The position numbers were made by a program, and so were the translations under genes. From Podarcis pityusensis (lineage: Eukaryota): a stretch of 64,000 bases of DNA. The stretch lies in assembly GCA_964106645.2 (NCBI GenBank), contig OZ067054.1; one strand, given 5' to 3'. The notes beneath the pieces were generated by a model. That model searched no databases, was not told where the DNA came from, and worked only from the letters and a program-made list of their open reading frames with translations. Below are positions 4,517-51,900 of the stretch, piece after piece; position 1 is the first letter of the stretch, and every line of letters starts with the position of its first letter.

Positions 4517-4716
4517 NNNNNNNNNNNNNNNNNNNNNNNNNNNNNNNNNNNNNNNNNNNNNNNNNNNNNNNNNNNNNNNNNNNNNNNNNNNNNNNNNNNN
4601 NNNNNNNNNNNNNNNNNNNNNNNNNNNNNNNNNNNNNNNNNNNNNNNNNNNNNNNNNNNNNNNNNNNNNNNNNNNNNNNNNNNNNNNNNNNNNNNNNNNN
4701 NNNNNNNNNNNNNNNN
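4517..4716. other. Assembly gap (200 N)
   Basis: Run of exactly 200 N, typical of a fixed-size scaffolding placeholder. Confidence 0.99.
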
Positions 4717-7601
4717 CTGCATGTTCATTTATGTAATAAAAACGTACACACTGCTTGGTTGATTGCTTCCCCCCACCCACAAAAAAGCACCTCAGAGCAG
4801 TTTACAGGAAGACAAAACATGAATGTCGGGGGGGGCGACGACCTCACAAGCCTACTTTAAAGCATGCAAAAGTTAAAATGCTAAAGCAGATTAAAATTAC
4901 CTCAGCTTTCATCTGGTAGGCTTGTCTAAACAGCAATGTTTTGGGTTGCATGACTACTGCTACTGCTACTACTGTTACCATTATCATTATATCTATATAT
5001 ACAACCCGCCTTTTTCCCTGACAGGGACTCGGCTGAGAACATAGGGAATAATAATTAAAAAGGCAATTAAACATCAATAGAATAAAAAACTACAAGTATA
5101 TACACGTTTAGTCTAAACATACAGATGAAAACAACAATCGCAGCAGCAGCCCTCATTAAAAATGGACAGTTCTCAAAAAGCTTTTTGGAATAATTTCCTT
5201 TTCACCTGCTGGCAGAAGAACAATATGGAGAAAGCCAATTTAAAAATAAAATATGTATTTTATGGTTTTCAAGAGTAGCATCATAAACAACATAAAACAA
5301 AAAGAACACATAGAGTACATACTAGGAGGGAGCCAGTCTTCACTTCTCCAGGGAGGGAGTTCCAAAGTTATCTGGGAGAAGCCACCACCAAGAAGGCCTT
5401 TGTTCAATGTAAATTGGGGAAGGTGTGCATGTTTGAGGGTATGAATTGGATTTGGGGATACAAATTAAATTTAAAAAAAATCTGTAAGATAAATGTATGG
5501 ACATGGGATGGGAATACGGTAGGTTAGAACCATGTGAAAACACCTTGCACATAGTTGTGCATTGGGTATTGAAATCCTTGAAAGCTAACCAAGTTTTAGC
5601 CTTTTCTGTTTCAACAAACCCAATACACACACCCCTCTGGAATTGCTAATACTGTAGGTATAGGTGTGTGTATCATGAGGAGAAACAGGTGTACTGGGAG
5701 AGTGAATGGCAGACTGTGATGGAAGTGCTGGAGAAGATTGTGTGACACTAGGGAGGCTGGCGAGGAGTGACTAGGATGAGGGAATGAGCTGTTGCCTGTG
5801 GTTGGGGGTGTGCAAGGAGTCTGTGAAAGATGGAGGTGGAATGTCACTTTAAGGAAGGGTGGGAAACACATGCAGCTAATAATTATACAAAAACCAAAAC
5901 CTCAGAGTCTGCTGTAGCTGGACTTCCCACTGCCCTTCACTCCACAGGCCCATCTGCTATCAACTGTTCCAGTGGAAGCAAGTCCAGTAGAGAGGAGGAT
6001 GCATGCAAGGAGCACCTCACAGCTGGCCATCCCTACCCCTCAGGGCCTTTTTACCAGTAACTGCCCTGTGGGAAGGATCCTGATTACTTTTATACATTGT
6101 TTGTTATGTTCTGGTCTTTATTCATTCAATTATAAAAATGCAGTTTAATGTTACTTTAAAGCCATCTTGACAAATTTGTATGTAAGGTGGAATATAAATA
6201 ATTGAAATAAATACATAGTTTTGTGTGTGTGATGAAAGCATTAAGAATTCTTCCACTAAAAGATTATTTATCTATGAAAGTGGATAGTTTGGTGGAGGTG
6301 AATGGTGTATGGAGGTATTTCTGGCTGTGTTGGATTAGGCTACTACAAGAGAGGCATATGTTCAAATGCCTGCTTTACCATCAAGCTAATCATGTGACCT
6401 TTGGCTAGTCGTTCTTCTGTCTGTCTGATTTACCTCATTGGGTTGTGTGCAATGTTCGAAACTTCCATTGTTCTAGGCGCATTTTGTGACAGGGAATTTC
6501 ATTAGCGTGAGTAGCTTCTGAGTTCTGGGCGCAGTACTGTACCTAAGATTTCAGATTAAAACTGCAGAGTGGAAGGAAAGGAGGACCTTTTTTGCCTTCT
6601 CACTTCCAGCTACACTCTGAAGACCGGAGAAGAGACCCTCTTAAGAATATTAGGGGGGTGGGCGGAGGAAGGACTAGACCATGTGGAAAATGGACATAAT
6701 ATTTTAGCTGCAGTTCATTGATTTTCAGCTTAGTATTCTTGTTATAAAAAAGCGCACCTAGGCATTCTGTTGTTGCTCCCATAACCTTGGTTTAAGGTGC
6801 CCTTTAGTTCCTAGCTTTCATATCTCAGTTTCTAACACTGGTTGGGTGGTTCTGGGTAAGACAAAGATGTTGTAATCTACAGACGCATGTGTAGGGAAAG
6901 AGCAAGCATATTGAGAGAATGTGAAGTAGTATTGTGATGGAAGGAACATAAAATTGGGGAGGATGTAAAATTAATATCATTGAGGGGTTTATATTTTTTG
7001 TGAGTTGCGGAGACCAGTGGCATTCAGATTCACAGTTAGTGGTCAGCCGAGGACAGATCATCTGTTCCCAGCCATTTTTCCTCTTCTGCAGATATAATTC
7101 ATTATTAATCTTTTATGTTGTGGCTTGTTGGATGAAGTACTTCAAAGCTTTATTGTCCTTTGCTTTGCCAGTCTTTTGGGGAGCCTTCTAATAAAGAACA
7201 TAATTTCTTTGCTAGATTGAACCAAAATCCTTCTAATCCAGCAGTCAGATGCTCCTGGAAGACTTGCAGGCAGGGCATATAGAGGATGGGTAACAACAGG
7301 AGGTTTTCTTCAGCACCTGTTAATCAGATGTATATTACATCTGTACACAGAGGTTCCTTTTTATTGTCATTAAAAGCATTTGGTCAGACCTATTCTCTGT
7401 GAGCATGTAAAATTACTTATAAAAGTAATCTATTGTTATTGCTGCTGCCTTCTGTAAAGCCATATTGTGCTGTGTGAAGCCGCATTACTTTTTCTTCAAT
7501 TTAGTTCGCCACCCTCATTTCTAAAGTAAGCAAGCCATTTTCAAAGCATGGGTTATGAATAAAAAGGTGGCTTCCTTCAACCACAATTTTTGGATCATAT
7601 A

Positions 7602-14400: not shown

Positions 14401-17400
14401 CTACTGTGGCAACGCTTTCCTGGTCCAGAAACGGCCATAGCTGTTGAACTAGCTGCAGTTGGGAAAAGGCACTTCTAGCCTCAGAGGCTACCTGAGCCTC
14501 CAGCCACAGAGATGGATCCAGAATCACTCCCAGACTGCGAGACTGCGCAACCCCATCCAGGGCAGGCAACTGACCAAATTCTTGGATATTGGAGCTACTT
14601 GCCCACAGTGCAAATGAAAGGTTCTATCAACATTTGTCCATCTTGGGGTGGGAAGTATTTGTCACGCTAAACTAAATTTTAGAAAGACTGTGCTGCTGCA
14701 ATAAGGAACTGCCCAATTGACACTTGCGTCTTTGGTCCATCTTTCCCAGTACTAATCTGTCTTGCAAATCCTTATATGGAGGTGCCAGGGATTAAAACTC
14801 CAATGCTTACGATTATTCTTATTATATATTTATTTATACCCTCCCTCCTTTTCCCCTGATGGAACTCAAGGCAGCTTACAGATTAAAAACAAAAAGTGAT
14901 CTTTAAAAAAATGATTGATATAATTAAAACTATATACATATATAGTTTATGTATACATGTTTATGCAATATGTATATGCCTCATTTCTGAACTAAACCAG
15001 TCGTTGTCATAGATGTGAATTCTGCTTGAAAAAGAGGTAGGCTTGTGGACAGGCTGACATCCAGCCGGCCTGTGGGAAGCAAGGAGAGCTTTGATATAAA
15101 CAACATGCAGAAAAACATGAAGAGTCTGCTGGGTCGAGCCAGTGGCCCATCTAATCCGTCACTGTTCTCAGAGTGGCCACCCAGATGCCCATTGGAAGCC
15201 TTATTGCAGAACCTGAGTGCAACAACACTTTCCCATGCCCCTGAAACATTTTATCACTGCATCTTACCCCTTCCAAAGGGAACAGAATCTAAGATTTTAA
15301 TCACTTCTTGATACCTGACTATCTTGAAGTCATACTACTTTTGTTGGTGATTGAAAACAATGGTGCATCGGGTGCAGAAATTGCAATATATTCAGCATTT
15401 TCTAACCTTCCTTCGCTACCTTCTTTCAGATGACAGCAACTTTTGCCAAATCCTTTATGATAGGAGTCGTCAGCCCTGGTCTCCTGTTGAAGTCAGCCAC
15501 ACAGCTCTCATCTCACAGTGCCCTGCAGGCTTGGAAGAAGGGCTAGAAAGAGATAACTGTTACTGTCAGGGTGGAGCTGCACTGCAGCAGCCCCTTGCCG
15601 TGCCTCCGCAGGACACAGGAAGGACACATGTCTCCCCTGCTGTAGCTATGGCAAAGGAGTTTGTTGCGGACATCTTCCGGAGGGCCAAGGAAGCTAAAGG
15701 CACTGCCCCGATGGAAGAGGAGGCAGGCAGTGGGCTTCAGTGCCTTCTTGACTCGGATGGGGCCCTTGGCCAGGGCAGTTCAGCCTCTTGGGATCTAGGG
15801 AAGAGATTGGGGTCTTGCTTGCATGGCAGTGGCACTTGTAGCTCCACATCTCCTGGAACAGACAGCATCTCTGATGTGGATGGATCTCCCAAAGATTCAC
15901 CCACTGCCAGTGCTGAACTGGAAAACCAGCCAACAGAGCCAGGCTACGTGAACTATACTAAACTGCGTTATGTTATGGAGCCCAGTGATTCTTCTGAGAC
16001 AGAAGTTGGTAAGTCCCCCTTTAAAACAAAGCACAGTGTTTGAGGAAGTAGCAAATGACAGGGTTTTGAATCTCTGGCATCTGGATCTGCAGGCACAAGC
16101 AAAGAGGCTCAGTAACAAAGCCTGCAGCTGTGCTGGTTCTTGATAGCCATCCTCTTCCCTAGATGGCACAGTGTGTCAAGCCCATGCTTTTGTTTGACTT
16201 CCTGTATGTACAAGGAAAAGCTGTTTTCTTCAGCCTTGGGAATGTTTCCCATGCTGTCCCCGTTGTATAGCTACAAGCAGCAGTTTTCTTCTTGTGTTGC
16301 CCCTTATCTCGTGGGCTCCTTCTGAACACTCAACCAACAGTTTTGGGGCAAGCCTGGCAGTAGGACTGCATGAGAGATTTTTGCTCTTCTCTTCTGGAAA
16401 TATTGTCTACAACATAGGGACTTAAAAGTTCCCATGTCTCCTATTAATGTGAAGCAGTGAGGTGGAACTATGCTGAGGCATGGAGCCTAGTTGTTCTAGG
16501 CTGAATGGGCCTTGTAATGCCAATTCTACTAGTATAGTAGCTGATAGACCTAAATGTGACTTGTTCATAACCTTATTAAAGTGGCTGTTGAAGCTCTTGA
16601 GAAGTAAGTCCATGTATAAGAGGCTAATTTTTATTTTCACTTTAAGGGCAATAGATTTGACAAATTTGATAATTTGTGACTTCAACAAGAGAATACTGAG
16701 TGTGCATGTAGGGTTTTTTCCTTGGGATATTTTCCTAATCCTACCTCAGTGTTAAGCAATATGTTTACAGTTGCGTAAAGGAAGGAATGTGTGTACTCTG
16801 CAGGAAAAGGAAAATAAACTGTGCCAAGGAAAGCTGAATTATGTGATCTGTGTATGCTAGGCAGAGGTGCTGTGTGTACATCTTGCAAAATGTATTGGTC
16901 CTAGGGAGGACCAAAGAGCTGAGCACAGCACTGACCACTGACATCCTGCTCAGCTTCTCACCACTCCAGTGGTGGATAGAGGGTGTTCATCTGAATTCAT
17001 TCACTGAGAGTCTGAAGGTCTGCATAAAGTATGAATGGGGGACAGACCTGTCTTCTGCATGCATATATTTTGAAACATGCTTAGCCAGAAAACTAGGTGC
17101 CCTACCATCCATTGAGTCATTTTGAATGATGGTTCCATTATTGCTTCATTTTATGCCCTTGGACTGATTTAGGGTTGCAGGTCTCAACAACTCATCTTTC
17201 TGCAAAACTAGGATGCTGCATTTCACCATGATTGTTCGGTTTTCATGTGTGCATTGTTTGGGTCCCTAGACTGGGAAACCTATTTCAGCCCAAGGATTGT
17301 GTTCCTTTCTGGGAAATCTTCCAAGAGACATATGCCAGAGGTTGGTGGGGCCAGAAGCAAATATAGGCAGAATGATTCATTTTACCTCCTTACAGTAGGC

Positions 17401-18864: not shown

Positions 18865-21800
18865 CTCACTCACTAAATTTGAGCTTCTTGGACAGGTGCT
18901 TCATCCTGACATCTATTTCTTTTGACTGTGTGAGATTACCCTCTCCTTCGTCTCGTTGTGTTTACTTTCAGAATATGAGGATGATAAGATCTCCTTGCCA
19001 TTTGTTGTGACAGACCTACAAGGAAGAAATTTGAAGCTGCTGAAGGAGAAGGCTGTCTGTCAGGTGAGGGTAGTTTCTGGTCCCAGCATCATTAGAGAAA
19101 CTGGATTTGCAGCTAGCCTAGACTTGTGATTGGTTCACTTAAACTGAACCATCTTGACTTATTTCTATTAACAAGGTGACCTAAAGTCACTGAGAGGAAT
19201 TAATTTAAACTCAAGCAGGTTTCCCATTACCACTTACTTCCTAAACAGAAGTGTATACTGATTACTTCATATAACCAGAAAAAGTGTAGTTTTGTAACTA
19301 AAGAGAGGGTTGTATTCAGTGCTAGTCCTATTAAGAAGAGATTTGTTGAAGTTCATTGATCTAAGTTAGTCATGTCCACTTATTTCAGTGGGTCTGTTCC
19401 AAATAGGACTAGCATTGGATACAACCCAGAGCCTTCAATACAGATCTGTTCATCTCCCAAAATGTTTAAACCGAGAGAAGAAACTCATTCAGAAAGGTAT
19501 GTGGTGTAGTCCTCTGGGGACTGCATCCCAAAAACCTGAGCACATGGAGGAATGAGCAAATAATTGAATGGCAATTATGTATGTACCAGCTCTTTGCATA
19601 TGGAAAAACTAGAAAGTTGTAGAGAAAGATCTGAATCCTTCCTAATGTGTTAATTGTCCCCAGGCTGGGAATTTTGACATTGAGGAACTTTCAAACATGT
19701 GACTTCCCCCACCTACATTCTGCAATGGTACAGTCCCTAGAGGGCTGAACCTTCTTTTTTCTAATCATGTAGAATATCATACTGATGGGCCAGGCAGTGT
19801 AGGAAGGCCATCACACCAGCAGTACGCCAACCTAAGGGGTGCTTCCACATGGATTTGCTACACACAGTTGGCTTTTGCAATATATTACAGCTGTGCCTTA
19901 GAGCCTCATCAGGGAGGTTAGCAGCAGCCACATGCTCATAATATATGATGCTGGCTTAAAGGATTATTAGAGGAGCAGAATCAGCTTTCCCCCTCAACAG
20001 AAGAGTGATCTATTTGGTTACAAAATGTCCTCTCTCTAACTGGCGGTATTTCTAGTCCTAATCTGCCTTTGTCCTATGACAGTTACTGAGCTTTCTGCTG
20101 CTGAGATGTTGTTCTGACTGTTAGTGTTGGTGCACTTGGCCTACAGAACTCACTAGCAGAAAGTTGGCAGCCTTCATCCTGGCTCACTTGAACCAACTGC
20201 TCATCCATCATCTGCAACATGAAGGTCACTTATGAAAATTACATCTGTCAACTACCCTCCAGCGCTAAAAGGGCAGCAGGTTCCACCTCAAATGAGTCTC
20301 TGGAAGATGCTCTTGGCCATTTTGACCTTCCCTGCCAAGCTTTGTTAGGATTCAAGTTATTTTAGATTCACAGTTGGGTTTTGCACATTGTAATTTTTTA
20401 TGCTGTGAATGTTTGAGAATTAAGAATTGTCTCAAGGTAGCTCTGGTTCAGGGCTGGCAATGCAAATGCTTCCCCTTTCCTAAATCCACATCTTTCTTTG
20501 CCTTTCCAGGGCCAATACTTAACAGTGGAGCAACTGACTTTAGATTTTGAGTATGTCATTAATGAGGTGATCCGGAACGATGCCTCATGGTCAAAGCAGT
20601 TTTGCTCCTTCAGTGACTATGACATCGTCATTTTGGAGGTAGGACCATGTTGGGTGTATTATCGCAGTAACGGTGCCCCATTTGGGTGCAGTTTGGGCCA
20701 TTGAGGAACTATGCTGCTCCTTGGTAATTTGCATCCTTGCAGCCATTGATCTTCAGACTTTATTTCCAAGGAAGGGCTTTATTTATTGTCTCTTTTATTA
20801 ATTTTTGATATCTGCATCAAATCCTTTTAAAGCTAAAATGAGAGAGATGTCAACATGAATAAAATAGCCAGTGCATGTCTAGTTGACATTTATTGCTACA
20901 TTGCAAGAGCCCTTGGCAATTGACCTACCTGTTTGTAATACCCTCTAGCAAACCCCACTCCCATCTTGGGTAAAAATGAGCAGCGGTCCTTTCTTTAATT
21001 TTCTGGTTAGTTGTGACTGAAGGGGAGGCTGAAACACAGTTGCGTCATTGTTTGAAAACCAGAACTCTCAATATGTTGGCCAATAGTGCCAAGCCATACT
21101 TAAAATGCTGTGGCCTAAGTAACTTAGGCTGGTACATGTGAATTCAGTGCCAGCACATGTCATCACCTGTTTATGGCACCTCTGGATTTTCCAACTCAAT
21201 AGGGCCTTTGAGTGTCCCATCTTGTTTTCAGGCATGATATCTAATTTGTACGGGAGCCTTGACTAATAAGGGGTAGCGGGAGACCTTTTTTTCTACCTCA
21301 CCAAAGGTGGCTGATATGGATCCTTCCTTTTTTAAAGACAGGGATGGCCAATTGTCTACCTAGTGTCTGATTATAAGGTGCAAAGCTTGCTACTGCTAGC
21401 CTTCTGCCGTACTTGAGGGCAGATACCAAAAGATTCCAACTGAGAAATGACTCTGCCCCTGTGGAGATGGTAATCTGGAAACAGTGGCTCATGTTCTCCT
21501 GTACTGTCCCCTTTATAAAGATCTGAGGAATGAGATCATTACCCCACTCTTTCTTACCATCTGAGGCCACATTGTTCTTTCTCTTATCAGATCAAAATTG
21601 TCAGACAACAGCAAGGGTTGCTAGGTTTATCGAAGGTGCAATGAAATTAAGGGCCACTATCTGAACTATCTGGGATGCGGGTGACGCTGTGAGTTAAACC
21701 ACAGAGCCTAGGACTTGCCGATCAGAAGGTCGGCAGTTTGAATCACCGCAACGGGGTGAGCTCTTGTTGCTCGGTCCCTGTTCCTGCCACTCTAGCAGTT

Positions 21801-45096: not shown

Positions 45097-48000
45097 TTTA
45101 TCCCATCGCAGCAATGTCCTCTTGGAAGGGCAAAAGAACACTGAACAGAGGAACATGCATAAGTGTTTAATTCTCTAAGTCATTGGTTTTCAGACTTGCT
45201 ACCTTCAAAGGACATTTTCCATATCAACTTGTCCACAACAGAACCCCTAGCATTGCAGAGAATGCTGGGACATTTTCTTGAATGCACAGGGTGCTGCTAT
45301 TGACTGTTAGGGCTCAAGGTTGCTCTGTGTGGACTGAGAGTGCACCCAAAAGGGGCCCAGTACTTTCTTGCTGCTGCACCTTGAACAGAATGATCAGCTG
45401 TGGACAGGCAAGCCATCTCAGGGAAGCTTGCACCAATCATTATGGGTCTTCTAATTAAAGAACCCTGAGAAGTCTCCAAGGAACCCCAGGTTCCCTGGAA
45501 CACAGCCATGAAAACCACTGCTCTAAGAGCACTTGGACAAGTTGCTGAAAAAAGCAAAGAGGCTCCCGGAAGCTCCAATCCCCTTGAATGAACAGCAAGG
45601 TATTCAGAGTGAGACTCAGACTTACAGTTGCTGGGGAGGCACGAGTGGTGTGCGAGTACGACTGGCTTGAACTTCCCAGCATGTAACCTCCTTGAATCAC
45701 GTAGGTCCCCGTGCTGCTGCTGCCACTGCCTCCTCCACCGCCACCACCAGTGCTGCCACCGCCACCACCATTTCCATTTCCACCTCCTCCTCCTCCAGCA
45801 CTGCTGCCTCCGTTTGGGTTGGCTATGATTTGCCCTCCAGAGACATACATGGGCACTGACCCACTGCTGGCCACAGTCTGGGAGGTTGCTGGGGTGGAGA
45901 CCTGGGTTGGGGTGCCTTGCGATTCATAGTAGTTTGCGCCAGTGTTCTGAGTGTAGAGAGGGGTTTCCGTGTAAGGGTAAGTGTTGGAGCGTCTGAAAAC
46001 AGGAGAAAGAGGTGCTGTTTCCATCTCTGATTTCCAAGTGAAGAAAACAACCACTTGTTATAGAGAAATGGCAGCTAAACATATACACCACCCTACAGTG
46101 AGCAAAAAGGAGAAGGCTGTACATCACCACTCCTTTACCATGCTTTTTGCTTAGATCAAGATGACTTAGCTTAGGGGTGCACAAACCCAGCTCCCAAGTG
46201 ATTTCACTTGGGGTTTTTTTTCCATTAGAAAACAGGGACAATCAACAGCCAATCCACCAATCTTCTTCAAGGCAGCACTTCAGAATAACTTCCCTGATTT
46301 TCGACAACATTTACTATATAAACTTTCATTTTCTATTCTTTACAAAACAATAATAAACAGTTCATTTTTTAAAAGAAAAATCTAAGTTCATGCGCCCATA
46401 GTTTCATTTATAATAAAAAGGGGAAATGCCTAAGAGATATCGTCCACACCCTAGTGCTTCATCTGTGTTTGGTATTTGTATGTAATGTTCTAAGGTAAAA
46501 GGCAAAGGACCCCTGGATGGTTAAGTCCCGTCAAATTTGACTATGGGGTGCGGCACTCATCTCACTTCAGGCCGGGGGAGCTGGTGTTTGTCCACAGACA
46601 GCTTTCTGGGTCATGTGGTCAGCATGACTGAACTGCTTCTAGCACAACGGGACACCGTGACAAGTGCCAGAGAGCACAGAAATGCCATTTACCTTCCTGC
46701 CGCAGTAGTACCTATTTATTTACTTGTGCTGGCATGCTTTCGAACTGCTAGCTTGGCAGGAGCTGGGACAGAGCAACGGGAGATCACCCCGTTGTGCAGA
46801 CTTGAACTGCCAACCTTCCGATCGGCAAGGCTCAACACCACCTGCTCCCAGAACATAATGTTCAGCTGTGACTGGGTGAAGATACTCCATAACCATTAAC
46901 CCTTCATTGCTAGGTGGCACCAATGTTGTGATGGAGCCTGGCCATCCAGAAAGGCATTTCCAGCTGCTAGATCATTGTCTGGCCATCTATGCACAGGGAA
47001 GTTGACCGTCTCTGGCTTAAGATACAGAATAGAATCAATTAGCATCTGTGTGAAGATCTGTGTCTCTTGCAACCTGCACCTGACAGGAGTCCATACCCGG
47101 CTCACTGTGAGCTTGAATGCTGGGGCAGCACCGGTATGATAAAGCCTTCCTTCTCACCAGGCATGTACTCACATGGTACTTGCTGTGTAGCTGGCATCAC
47201 CTCCTTCCACATACTGCACCTGGTTGGGATAGACATGCTGCACAGGTACCTGCTGGAGCTGCTGCACCTGAGAACGCAGCAAGCCCACAAAGAGAGGAAA
47301 GGAAAAGAGGTGAGACAGGATGGGCCAAGTCGCTGCACTCCACTCTCTCTAATCCCTCCCAAGACAAAAGGCGTCTTTGTCTAGGCGCCTCTAGACAAAA
47401 GGCGACCTCTCTGCCTTCCTAATTGCCACACCTACTGTCAATCTGCTTGCAGCAGTCATCACCTGTCTCATGATTTATATTTGCCTCTATCCTGCATCTG
47501 ACATTGATCTAGCAGACATTAAATGTGGGGGAAGGGGGTTCGGGGACGGGACGGGACTCTAGAATGCTTATTCCCATGAACCAAGGATTTCCCCACAAGT
47601 CAGAGCCGTAGTGAGGAAAGTCAGGAACCCAGGGTCCAAATACTCTGATCCTGGGAAAAGCAGCACAATGGTATAACATGGAGAAGGAAGTGCTGGGGGC
47701 TCTTGCTGGGCAGGCAAGAGCCCCCAACAGATTCTCTTGCGTTCCCTTCTGGAATGCTAAGGTGCAGAGCTGCATGCAATTCCATCACTTCTAAAGGTCA
47801 CTTTGCACATTTTTGTTAAGAGTGCAGCTAAAATGTTGCAAGTGTACATCTACAAGAGTAAAGTGCAGGTGTGAGAAATATACATTTGCATTATGCAGAT
47901 GCACTTGTAGGACAGCCACGATTGGCTGCAGTTGCCCTCGAGTGCATACTCAATGGCAAACCTGGGTTCGCTCCTGTGTAAAGTGTGAAATGGCCCTTTG

Positions 48001-48927
48001 CAACAATGGTACAATATTGGTTTTATGGAAATACATGGATTATAGCACAGCTTTATAAACAAGAGGCCTTTTACTTGCCATGATGGGCCTAATGTCTTAC
48101 AATGTGATGAGGTGATTTGAAGAAAACTCAGTTTCCACTCACTAGACAGCAGCTAACTTTGGCTCAGGGAGCTGCCTTTGTTTCAGTAGCTGATACAGTT
48201 TTAGGGCAAACGGGCTAAGTAGTCCTCATACAATCGGTACTGCATGATTTAGCTTACCTAGATCAGACCTTGTTCATAAACATAGATGCAGTTATCTGGG
48301 ATCCTGGCTAGCTATGGCAAGCCTCTGTTCTGGCTCCCAAATACTGAAAGTCCTGCACAAAACGTAGCATGCTTATCTGGTGGCATATGTCTCCCACAAA
48401 CCCCAATCCCTCAAGACCTCCATATCTACATCTGATTCAAGCAAATGAAATCAAAATCACATCCAGTGCTGAAGAGGTCCAAGAATTTCAATTTCTCTGG
48501 CAGTATGTGGGGAAGGAAAGAGGGTTGCTCTACCATCGCTAATTAAGAGGAGAGTCACAATCGTAGAGAAGGGGATAATGCTGGCAAGCTCTGCTACCTG
48601 ACTCTGTGGGAAGGGAAATGCACAGAGCTTGCTATTCTTGGATCTCAATCGGTGCCCTCTGCAGGACCTACTTTAAGTGCTGTAGCTGCTGTTCCAAACA
48701 CTAGCACCTGAGGGACTCTCTGAATCTTGACTCTCTGGTCAGGGCTGGAGTGATGAGAGGAGAGGAATGGCAGCTGCTCTATCACCACCTTCTGTTGTGG
48801 CAGGAGGAGCGGTTGAGGAAGCATGCGGACCAGCTCCACCCACTGCTCCGAGGCAGAATCTAGAGAATGCATGTAGTGGAGCCTGTGCTCTGGGCCAGAT
48901 AAACAGCAGCTGGCCAGCTGGGGTGCA

Positions 48928-48958
<31 letters not shown>

Positions 48959-51900
48959 ACTCTAGGGAGAGACCTTGCTGCACTCCTTGTTGCTCTTGCT
49001 GCTGCGACTGCTGATTGCTCTTAGAAGGGCCACTGTCTGCACTCTAAACAATAAACAGAGAGACTGAAGCAATCAGAGATAGTGGAGAAACCCAGAAATG
49101 TCCTGCCGGAATGAAGGATTAAGGCAGAGGGTGGTATTCAATTAAATAATTGCAGAAGCAGAATGAGTTCCACTTGCGCAAGGGAACTTCCCCTCTTCTT
49201 TTCCCAATGCCATTCGTATCCAGGGAACCTGCAGAACAGATTGAGGATGGTGGAAGTTCTGTTGCACAAGGAGATTGTGCTGATGGAATATTCCCCTTAA
49301 TGCTACTTTGATTACAACCCAGAAGGTCCACGCATCCTGCCTCATCTGCATCTTGCCCAATGAGCCCAAGGCATTCTATAATGGTGGCTAAGAAGGTTCC
49401 TTACAAAACAAGAACTGGCAGGGATGAGAACCTTCCCCATCTTCATTGTCTAGAATTTATGGTGATCACCGTGGGGCTGGGGGAGTTATGGGTGACTACT
49501 AACCACTTCTTCAAGAGAAGAAGGGTGTGGGGGAGTTTGGATATATCCAGAAAGCTAGTTCTGGGTGGGAAAGATTTAAACGTCCCACCGCTGAGGAATT
49601 CAGGACAGGAATGGGTGCAAAGGCTTTAATGCACTGGCACTGGCTTAGCTGTCTTGGGGAGCAGCTAATCTAGGAATATCCTCCATGGCGGATCACAGCT
49701 GCTACCAAAGTAGGGCAGCCAGAAAGCAACAGTCAAATCTCTTTCTTACCTCTTGAGTAACATGAACCTGCTGGAGTCCTTGCACTGCCAGCTGCTGCAC
49801 TGTGCCTGCTTTGGGAGTTGTCTGCACAACAGATCTCTGCAGAAACAAACCAGAATTTATCAGAATGCTTTGGATGGCAGAGGTGATACAAGGCCTCCTT
49901 GCCCCAAGGATAGCTGTAGTCGAGCTTGCAATACATACTGACAAGAGCAGGCCAAAGGGGACCTAACCCTAACCCTAGGACACAAAACATGCAAAGTAAT
50001 GATTTTTCTTTTTACAGAAGTCTTACAAAAATACTATTCTCACAAAAGGCCCTACAAACATATTACTTCATTTGGGTATTCCAAAGAATCTGAACACAAT
50101 TAGGAGAAACTCAACAAAGCACTCTTGTCGGCATAAGCATTTCTGTTCCAAGGCTTCTCCTGACCCTCTCCAGGCCAATTTGGGCGGGGTGGGGGAAGAG
50201 ATTCCTGTTGTACTAGGACAGTGATGGTCAAACTTGGCCCTCCAGCTGTTTTGGGACTACAATTCCCATCATCCCTGACCACTGGTCCTTTTAGCTAGGG
50301 ATGATGGGAGTTGTAGTCCAAAAACAGCTGGAGGGCCAAGTTTGGCCATCACTGCACTAGCAGAGGTCCTCATGTGGGCTTCCACAACTGAGATTGCTTA
50401 GTTGATTCTGGCCCATTAATTTTATATTAGTCTTATAAATCTGAATTGCACCCCAAAACATCACGTGGAAGGTTTGATTTCTGAAAACTAAATATCACAT
50501 AAATACATCAGTTTGTAGCAATGTGAAAGGGACAGTTGTTTAGAGTTACACATATCTGGCATTTGGTGTGACACCTCCACAACAAAACAAAGGTAAACTA
50601 TAGGAAAGTTCACACTACCTTATAACTGAAAGCAGTGGCTACATGGAGTGCAATAAAGATCTTGAAAGTGCTTAGAAACTGTTAACAGATGGAACTTTGA
50701 AAATCTAGTGTGAACCCTTGACAAGCTGCAGCTTTTGCTACCCGAAAATCCGATCACATTACCATGACTGGGAAGAGACCACAAGATATTGGCAAGCAAA
50801 GATACAGCACCTCTTGTGCTACAGGCACTTGCTGGACTCCGTGAACCTGGAGCTGCTGCACTTGTCCCGGTTTAGCAGCAGAGCTGCTGTTCTGGACAGG
50901 GGAACGCTGAAAGGCAAGGAAGGAGACTTTACTTTTGGGTATGGACGAAGGAGCAAGGCATAACAGCATGATGTACTACTGTCTCAGAATTCATGCTTAC
51001 TTTCTCTCCTCCTGGAGTCAGGTGGTGTCCCTCCCTCAGTCATGGTGCACTCTACTTCTAAGAAAAACTTCCACATGGTCATTATACTGCTGATGAACAT
51101 TTTATGGAAGAGAAAGGTTGTCCAGCACTACCAATTTTTATAACAAAAAAGCAGGAGGGGACACCACACGCACTGCTATATTCTTTGCTTAAGTCTGTTG
51201 GTTAGAAGAGGGGCACTGAGTTGTGCCCAACATTGGGGGGCCCGTCACACGCATCACAACATTGTGCAGCTGTCGCAGACCTCCCAAGTGTCTGTGCAGC
51301 GTCTCCCAACACTGCACAAGCAAGAAAACTTTGTGCCAGGCCACACCGCTCCGTGCAGTGTCTCTCAAAACTGTGCAGCTGGGGTGATTTCCAGGATGGT
51401 GGAGGACCGTGGACAAAGGTAGGAGGGAGGAAGCAGACAGGCGAGAAAGGGCTCAGCCTCCTCAAGATGGGGGGGGGGGTTTCAGCCCCATCCCAACAGA
51501 TATGGGGGGGGGCTGAAGACGCCTCAGCTTTATAGAGTTGGTGCCTATGGAGGTCAGAGATCAAATATTCTAAGTAACTTGCATTTTTTCCCAGGTTACA
51601 TATGGTGCTATCTACAAAAATGACAGAATGAACATAAACTGGATATTGAAAAATGGCAACACACAGAAACCAGTCCAGTCTCAGTCTCCTGGGACATTAA
51701 TTGTCTAACCTGTATATTGAAGCAAAGGATGCTTTACGGAAACAACAGAATATAATGCTGCTAAATGATCACAGCCTGGGCACAGTAACACACACGCACG
51801 CACGCAAACACACTTGACGCAAAATAGGCATGTTGTCTTTTCTGGCGATCACTCGTAGTCAAGTAAGATTGTCTTCCATGAATATGGTCTTAACAGTGTG

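What the first reader, a model, noticed from the sequence alone, without database searches (positions are those of the whole stretch)
48672..49043. Unexplained 372-nt in-frame cassette exon in RFX1 intron 7 adding 124 aa to the N-terminal activation region
Seen directly: a pyrimidine-rich acceptor (tctctctgtttattgtttag) and a stop-free frame, [124 protein letters not shown]. Two donors both keep the frame (AAA|gtaggt, 372 nt; CAG|gtgcta, 336 nt), matching the phase-0 ends of exons 7 and 8. The sequence is GC-richer than the flanking intron and not transposon-like. It is absent from the canonical 979-aa human RFX1 as I know it. The hydrophobic segments ([24 protein letters not shown]) look like interaction motifs. 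Inference: a tissue-specific long RFX1 isoform, little or not at all characterised, though it may exist in automated predicted isoforms.
Basis: partly seen in the sequence, partly recalled or inferred. Interest (0 to 1): 0.75.

Follow-up and report, generated by a model that had tools for sequence, protein, structure and literature searches.

The report
Ancient optional exon in RFX1
The transcription factor gene RFX1 has an optional exon, kept from sharks to humans and already in database predictions and a 2014 mouse exon list, that adds about 120 amino acids and likely gives the protein an extra partner-binding surface that my searches found no study of.

Summary
The exon is real, but it is not new. 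The 372-nt frame, the acceptor and both donors are as described. One spliced contig from a related lizard run joins it to exons 7 and 8 (1 of 4 runs laid). The peptide occurs in predicted RFX1 isoforms of chimaera, sharks, coelacanth, amphibians, reptiles and mammals, including human X2. Exon-skipping forms are annotated in sharks, a lizard and mammals; short-donor forms in a turtle and rodents. It is the orthologue of mouse 'novel exon tNE-6' (PMC4111849): same 330 nt as the mouse insert, primers inside it. That paper called it testis-enriched by RNA-seq but 'barely expressed in testis' on validation, so tissue specificity is open. The last 22 residues are as conserved as constitutive exon 8 (0.90 vs 0.91); the 5' half drifts (0.30). 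Best reading: a splice-in interaction module in the activation region, trimmed by the second donor. Partner and effect are inferred, not shown.

The parts
48672..49043 (-). RFX1 cassette exon, long form (372 nt, 124 aa, phase 0/0)
   Evidence: joined to exons 7 and 8 in contig X13 record 9; homologues
49044..49063 (-). polypyrimidine tract and AG acceptor
   Evidence: joint 49043/49750 with canonical ends
48666..48671 (-). long-form donor GTAGGT
   Evidence: joint 47267/48672 (read with the cut +2)
48672..48707 (-). 36-nt extension between the short donor (CAG|GTGCTA after 48708) and the long donor; encodes the last 12 residues
   Evidence: short-donor isoforms annotated in Pelodiscus, mouse, rat, Phodopus; not seen in the lizard contigs
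48672..48737 (-). most conserved block, last 22 residues of the cassette
   Evidence: mean identity 0.90, 10 of 22 columns invariant over 28 species
48816..48851 (-). predicted amphipathic helix (12 residues)
   Evidence: mean identity 0.69; helical hydrophobic moment 1.34; helix in a low-confidence model
48852..49043 (-). variable low-complexity 5' half (Gln/Ser-rich here, Pro-rich in mammals), with an AGC repeat of variable length
   Evidence: mean identity 0.30, 0 of 62 invariant; alignment; 3-nt gaps in contigs
48602..49140 (.). substitution-free zone in a related lizard contig: exon plus about 70 and 97 nt of flanking intron
   Evidence: X1 record 5: 21 substitutions in 968 nt, none here
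49750..49836 (-). upstream exon 7 (87 nt)
47173..47267 (-). downstream exon 8 (95 nt)

Best explanation
This is an in-frame cassette exon of RFX1, shared by sharks, lobe-finned fish and tetrapods, that inserts about 110-135 residues into the N-terminal activation region and likely works as a splice-controlled interaction module. Shown: splicing of the long form in one lizard contig; annotated included, skipped and short-donor forms in several lineages; strong conservation of the last 22 residues against a drifting 5' half. Inferred: the insert is a mostly disordered arm; its amphipathic helix and basic/hydrophobic 22-residue block bind a cofactor next to the conserved exon-8 segment and so shift RFX1's balance between activation and repression in cells that include it; the second donor removes the last 12 residues (9 in muroid rodents) and would weaken or drop that contact. 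The partner is not identified.
For: Junctions 49750>49043 and 48672>47267 with canonical ends in a 3479-nt contig at depth 95 that also carries the two neighbouring constitutive junctions. Profile search: 66 of 95 hits are long proteins with RFX domains, from Callorhinchus to human; the other 29 are short unnamed frames that read by eye as genomic read-throughs of the same exon. The 3' block pattern is found in 64 of those 66. Conservation 0.90 for the block, 0.91 for exon 8, 0.80 for exon 7, 0.61 for exon 9, 0.30 for the cassette's 5' half (28 species); substitutions in the block are mostly conservative (K/R, I/V, V/L/M). Among 56 listed cluster members: 38 long, 15 skipped, 3 short-donor. 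Zero of 21 substitutions fall in the exon in a related-lizard contig, P about 4e-5. The insertion point lies within the Pfam PF04589 activation region. RFX1's opposing N-terminal activation and C-terminal repression regions are stated in a review (PMC8106159 passages).
Against: No binding partner, no Pfam family and no solved-structure relative for the insert. Part of the conservation may be nucleotide-level: synonymous sites and 70-97 nt of flanking intron are also unchanged in the X1 contig, and the conserved P-Q-V overlaps the short donor CAG|GT. I could not compute dN/dS. Only 1 of 4 runs showed spliced RFX1 at all. The mouse paper says the exon was 'barely expressed in testis' on validation. 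Predicted proteins are in frame by construction, so broken orthologues would be invisible here. Caviomorph rodents have lost the helix motif and muroids three residues of the block. No translation evidence.
Confidence: 0.55

Rival explanations
1. Spacer or disruptor: inclusion matters because it splits the activation region between exons 7 and 8 and dampens it; the 3' end is conserved mainly for splicing signals, not for a binding surface.
For: Insertion falls inside PF04589. Exon plus flanks are substitution-free in X1. The 5' half varies freely in sequence and length. Two donors sit inside the conserved block.
Against: Conservation covers residues upstream of both donors and a separate helix 25 residues away, with conservative amino-acid changes from sharks to mammals. 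The 3' region shows no unusual RNA fold (z +0.44).
Confidence: 0.25
2. The block is a PxVxL-type motif that recruits HP1 proteins and makes the long form a heterochromatin-linked repressor.
For: P-Q-V-L-[VLM] fits the recalled consensus in 24 of 28 aligned species, and the short donor would cut it.
Against: The central Val is Ala or Glu in cartilaginous fish (7 of 106 proteins), and elsewhere it is explained by the donor GT. No paper holds RFX1, HP1 and PxVxL together. The consensus is recalled, short and common.
Confidence: 0.07
3. A conserved but minor exon of little protein consequence, a leftover of the exon duplications that built RFX1's N-terminus.
For: Exons 4-7 are mutual repeats, and the cassette's 3' end plus the start of exon 8 scores weakly against the exon-7 profile (10-12 bits; 3-13 of 200 shuffles reach it). 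Low mouse expression.
Against: The similarity is marginal against 23-43 bits among exons 5-7. Retention across jawed vertebrates at 0.90 identity is hard to explain without selection. The exon is in the dominant contig of one run.
Confidence: 0.1
4. Chance open frame or annotation artefact from unspliced RNA.
For: Such a frame arises in 20% of simulations; three runs show only unspliced low-depth cover.
Against: Exact canonical junctions on both sides, orthologues from chimaera to human, independent detection by junctions in mouse.
Confidence: 0.02

Closest known systems
Mouse Rfx1 'testis-enriched novel exon' tNE-6 (Hong, Song and Kim 2014, PMC4111849; mm9 chr8:86608465-86608794)
   Same: Orthologous exon: 330 nt equals the 110-aa insert of mouse RFX1 X1; both exon primers translate to motifs inside that insert; the isoform primers lie in exon 7 and downstream of exon 8.
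   Different: The paper's table gives no protein prediction for it, and the parts I read (abstract, passages, section 7, primer rows; figures not held) give no conservation analysis, second donor or function.
RefSeq predicted RFX1 isoforms, e.g. human X2 XP_047295148.1, mouse X1 XP_011246631.1, Podarcis raffonei X2 XP_053227704.1, Scyliorhinus canicula X6 XP_038640573.1
   Same: They contain this exon's peptide at the same position; 98% identity for the Podarcis protein.
   Different: Automated models with no tissue, protein or function data in what I could see; the 979-aa reference human protein lacks the insert (length inference and recall).
Testis-specific pC@RFX1 isoform (PMC5838959)
   Same: An RFX1 isoform that changes the N-terminal region.
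   Different: It comes from an alternative start site and shortens the protein upstream of the activation domain (passages); it is not this exon.
Conserved alternative exons encoding disordered segments with binding motifs (general class, recalled)
   Same: Frame-preserving, conserved flanking intron, low-complexity arm with a short conserved hydrophobic motif.
   Different: Unusually long for the class (recalled), with a second donor inside the conserved motif; binding not shown.

Membership tests
Genuine cassette exon | Spliced to both neighbours at canonical sites | tested here: met
   X13 record 9, both joints canonical; 1 of 4 runs
Genuine cassette exon | Skipped in other transcripts | tested here: inconclusive
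   No skip junction in the four runs; skipped proteins annotated for Podarcis lilfordi, mouse, two other mammals and sharks, 15 of 56 members
Genuine cassette exon | Frame-preserving with either donor | tested here: met
   372 and 336 nt, phase 0
Orthologue of mouse tNE-6 | Same length, position and primer sites | tested here: met
   mouse genomic DNA itself not examined
Tissue-specific exon | Inclusion differs between tissues | not testable with these tools
   Run tissues not given; mouse paper ambiguous
Protein-level purifying selection | dN/dS well below 1 | not testable with these tools
   No orthologous DNA available; amino-acid pattern is suggestive
Transposon-derived exon | Many copies in the genome | tested here: not met
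   One significant match for the 3' 63 residues; depth not repeat-like
HP1-binding PxVxL motif | Central Val conserved independently of splice signals | tested here: not met
   Ala or Glu in cartilaginous fish; overlaps donor GT; consensus recalled
RFX1 N-terminal repeat unit (exons 4-7) | Clear profile similarity to the other units | tested here: inconclusive
   10-12 bits, 3-13 of 200 shuffles (mouse 3 bits) versus 23-43 bits among exons 5-7
Exon shared by RFX1-3 paralogues | Homologous frame in the matching intron of the paralogues | tested here: not met
   Profile A1 finds nothing at E<5 in L015 and L016, which span the matching introns; paralogue names recalled

The most novel reading that the evidence does not exclude
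RFX1 has carried, since the origin of jawed vertebrates, a three-state splice switch (skipped, short, long) that adds a cofactor-binding motif to its activation region and turns RFX1 from activator to repressor, or the reverse, in particular cells such as germ cells or neurons. Because the reference human protein lacks it, damaging variants in these 110 codons would be read as intronic.
Probability: 0.25. Interest if true: 0.6.

Novelty: already known. Interest (0 to 1): 0.32.

Why it matters
RFX1 is essential in mouse embryos and for testis development, and acts as activator or repressor depending on context (review passages). A segment as conserved as its constitutive activation exon, but absent from the reference protein, is a concrete candidate for that context dependence and is easy to test with three cDNAs. 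The exon's existence is already on record; what this check adds is its depth of conservation, the conserved second donor and the link to the 2014 mouse exon.

Tried and rejected
Chance frame and transposon origin: rejected. No run was on record as RNA; RNA status of X13 rests on its four spliced joints. X1, X5 and X6 showed no spliced RFX1 contig; the tool filters human-like records, so this is no evidence. Pfam, solved structures, protein atlas and the 1.84-billion-protein profile search (8 hits, all reading as this exon) gave no non-RFX1 relative. Full-length AlphaFold2 model uninformative: mean pLDDT 33, and even the BCD domain was under 50. Core model low confidence: pLDDT 59, pTM 0.19, one helix, no compact fold; no fold search was run on either. 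Complex of residues 225-325 with the BCD region: no verdict, score 0.00. RNA fold around the two donors: not better than shuffles. Simple counts of splicing-factor motifs in 300-nt flanks showed nothing striking, without a control. Motif scans (LIR-like, PP1-like, ET-like; consensus recalled) are too short to weigh and are not universal. No named bird or ray-finned fish protein was among the 66 named hits, but only cluster representatives and 8000 candidates were scored, so loss is not shown. Relatives' genomes were not available, so no dN/dS. Literature: nine searches over open-licence papers only; subscription journals and bioRxiv supplements were not seen and could hold more on this exon. 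Earlier scan findings: none relevant.

Full report
Observation. The acceptor, the long donor after 48672 and the short donor after 48708 are present and in phase 0 with exon 7 (49836-49750) and exon 8 (47267-47173). GC is 55.9% against 46.6% on both sides. The gene is RFX1 of a lacertid-like lizard: a Podarcis raffonei isoform maps over 20 blocks from 57349 to 32223, with 14 after the cassette, which fits the 21-exon human gene (PMC2533330 passages). The open frame alone proves little: 20% of 2000 simulated introns have one as long.

Splicing. Of 24 listed runs none was on record as RNA; I laid 4, from four studies. In X13 one 3479-nt contig (depth 95) joins 50811 to 49836, 49750 to 49043, 48672 to 47267 and 47173 to 45992, all with canonical intron ends. 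The long form is therefore spliced in that sample, which may be a related species; its tissue is unknown. The other three runs gave only low-depth unspliced cover, and no skip or short-donor joint was seen in any run. In X1 one contig covers 48560-49527 with 21 substitutions, none between 48602 and 49140 (P about 4e-5 for the exon).

Conservation. The peptide found 44 longer proteins, the coelacanth region 22, and a six-sequence profile 95. Of those 95, 66 are long RFX-domain proteins from a chimaera, sharks, coelacanth, caecilian, newt, frogs, turtles, alligator, squamates and mammals, including human X2 and mouse X1; 29 are short unnamed frames that read as the same exon running into its intron. 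None of the named hits is a bird or ray-finned fish, but the search sees only cluster representatives, so loss is not shown. Over 28 species, identity to the lizard is 0.30 in the 5' half, 0.69 in a 12-residue amphipathic segment, 0.57 in the linker and 0.90 in the last 22 residues, against 0.80 for exon 7, 0.91 for exon 8 and 0.61 for exon 9. Among 56 listed cluster members, 38 carry the long form, 15 skip the exon (Podarcis lilfordi, mouse, two other mammals, sharks) and 3 use the short donor (mouse, rat, Phodopus); Pelodiscus X2 does too. These are automated annotations. The exon is single-copy and has no match in the corresponding introns of the two paralogues I fetched (their names RFX2 and RFX3 are recalled).

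Prior record. PMC4111849 (abstract, passages, section 7 and primer rows read; figures not held) lists tNE-6, a 330-nt novel exon in mouse Rfx1, found by junctions and called testis-enriched among six tissues. The insert of mouse X1 is exactly 110 residues, the two exon primers translate to motifs inside it, and the isoform primers flank it. It is the same exon. The paper gives no protein prediction for it and says it was barely expressed in testis on validation. PMC5838959 (passages) describes a different, start-site RFX1 isoform. A 2021 RFX1 review has no word beginning 'splic' (passages). PMC6361134 mentions RFX1 only as a ciliogenesis regulator. Nine searches found no functional study; the library is limited to open-licence papers.

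Mechanism. The insert lands inside the PF04589 activation region, immediately before the conserved exon-8 segment. It has no family, solved relative or atlas hit and no relative outside RFX1 among 1.84 billion representatives. Structure models were low confidence. It is richer in bulky hydrophobic residues than exons 4-7 (0.18-0.33 in its 3' parts against 0.07) and has one segment with a helical moment and one with a strand-like moment. A variable arm ending in short conserved hydrophobic elements is, from general knowledge, the usual anatomy of a binding motif in a disordered region. I therefore favour a splice-in cofactor-binding module (0.55), with the second donor trimming it. The main rival is a spacer whose 3' end is conserved for splicing reasons (0.25): synonymous sites and flanking intron are also frozen in X1, and the conserved P-Q-V overlaps the short donor. 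An HP1-type motif is unlikely because its central residue changes in cartilaginous fish. A distant origin from RFX1's own repeat exons is possible but marginal.

Verdict. The exon is real, ancient and alternative by annotation. Its existence is already recorded in RefSeq models and in a 2014 list, and I found no study of its function. Tissue pattern, translation, partner and effect remain untested. Interest 0.32.

Noticed in passing
window 56618-49750 (-), RFX1 exons 4-7: These four phase-0 exons are mutual sequence repeats (23-43 bits among exons 5-7, 0 of 200 shuffles; exon 4 weaker), and are skipped in various combinations in annotated isoforms.
   Followed up: partly
window 47600-49650: Three runs show low-depth unspliced contigs across intron 7 around the cassette; could be intron retention or pre-mRNA, but the runs were chosen for holding this stretch.
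   Followed up: no
window 48923-48964: AGC repeat in the exon: eight Ser here, six in two Podarcis proteins, 3-nt gaps in related contigs; always in frame in what was seen.
   Followed up: partly
window 46435-46808 and 50175-50361: Very high-copy repeats in RFX1 introns (depth thousands to hundreds of thousands), probably short interspersed elements.
   Followed up: no
proteins P0045, P0008, P0068: Odd annotated variants: a 39-residue insert in a bat (internal acceptor), and altered 3' junctions in a leatherback and a tailed-frog isoform.
   Followed up: no
window 15351-16040 and 20441-20701 (+): Exon-like frames of a plus-strand neighbour gene; resembles DCAF15 from recall only.
   Followed up: no
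window about 4520-4720: Assembly gap of 200 N.
   Followed up: no
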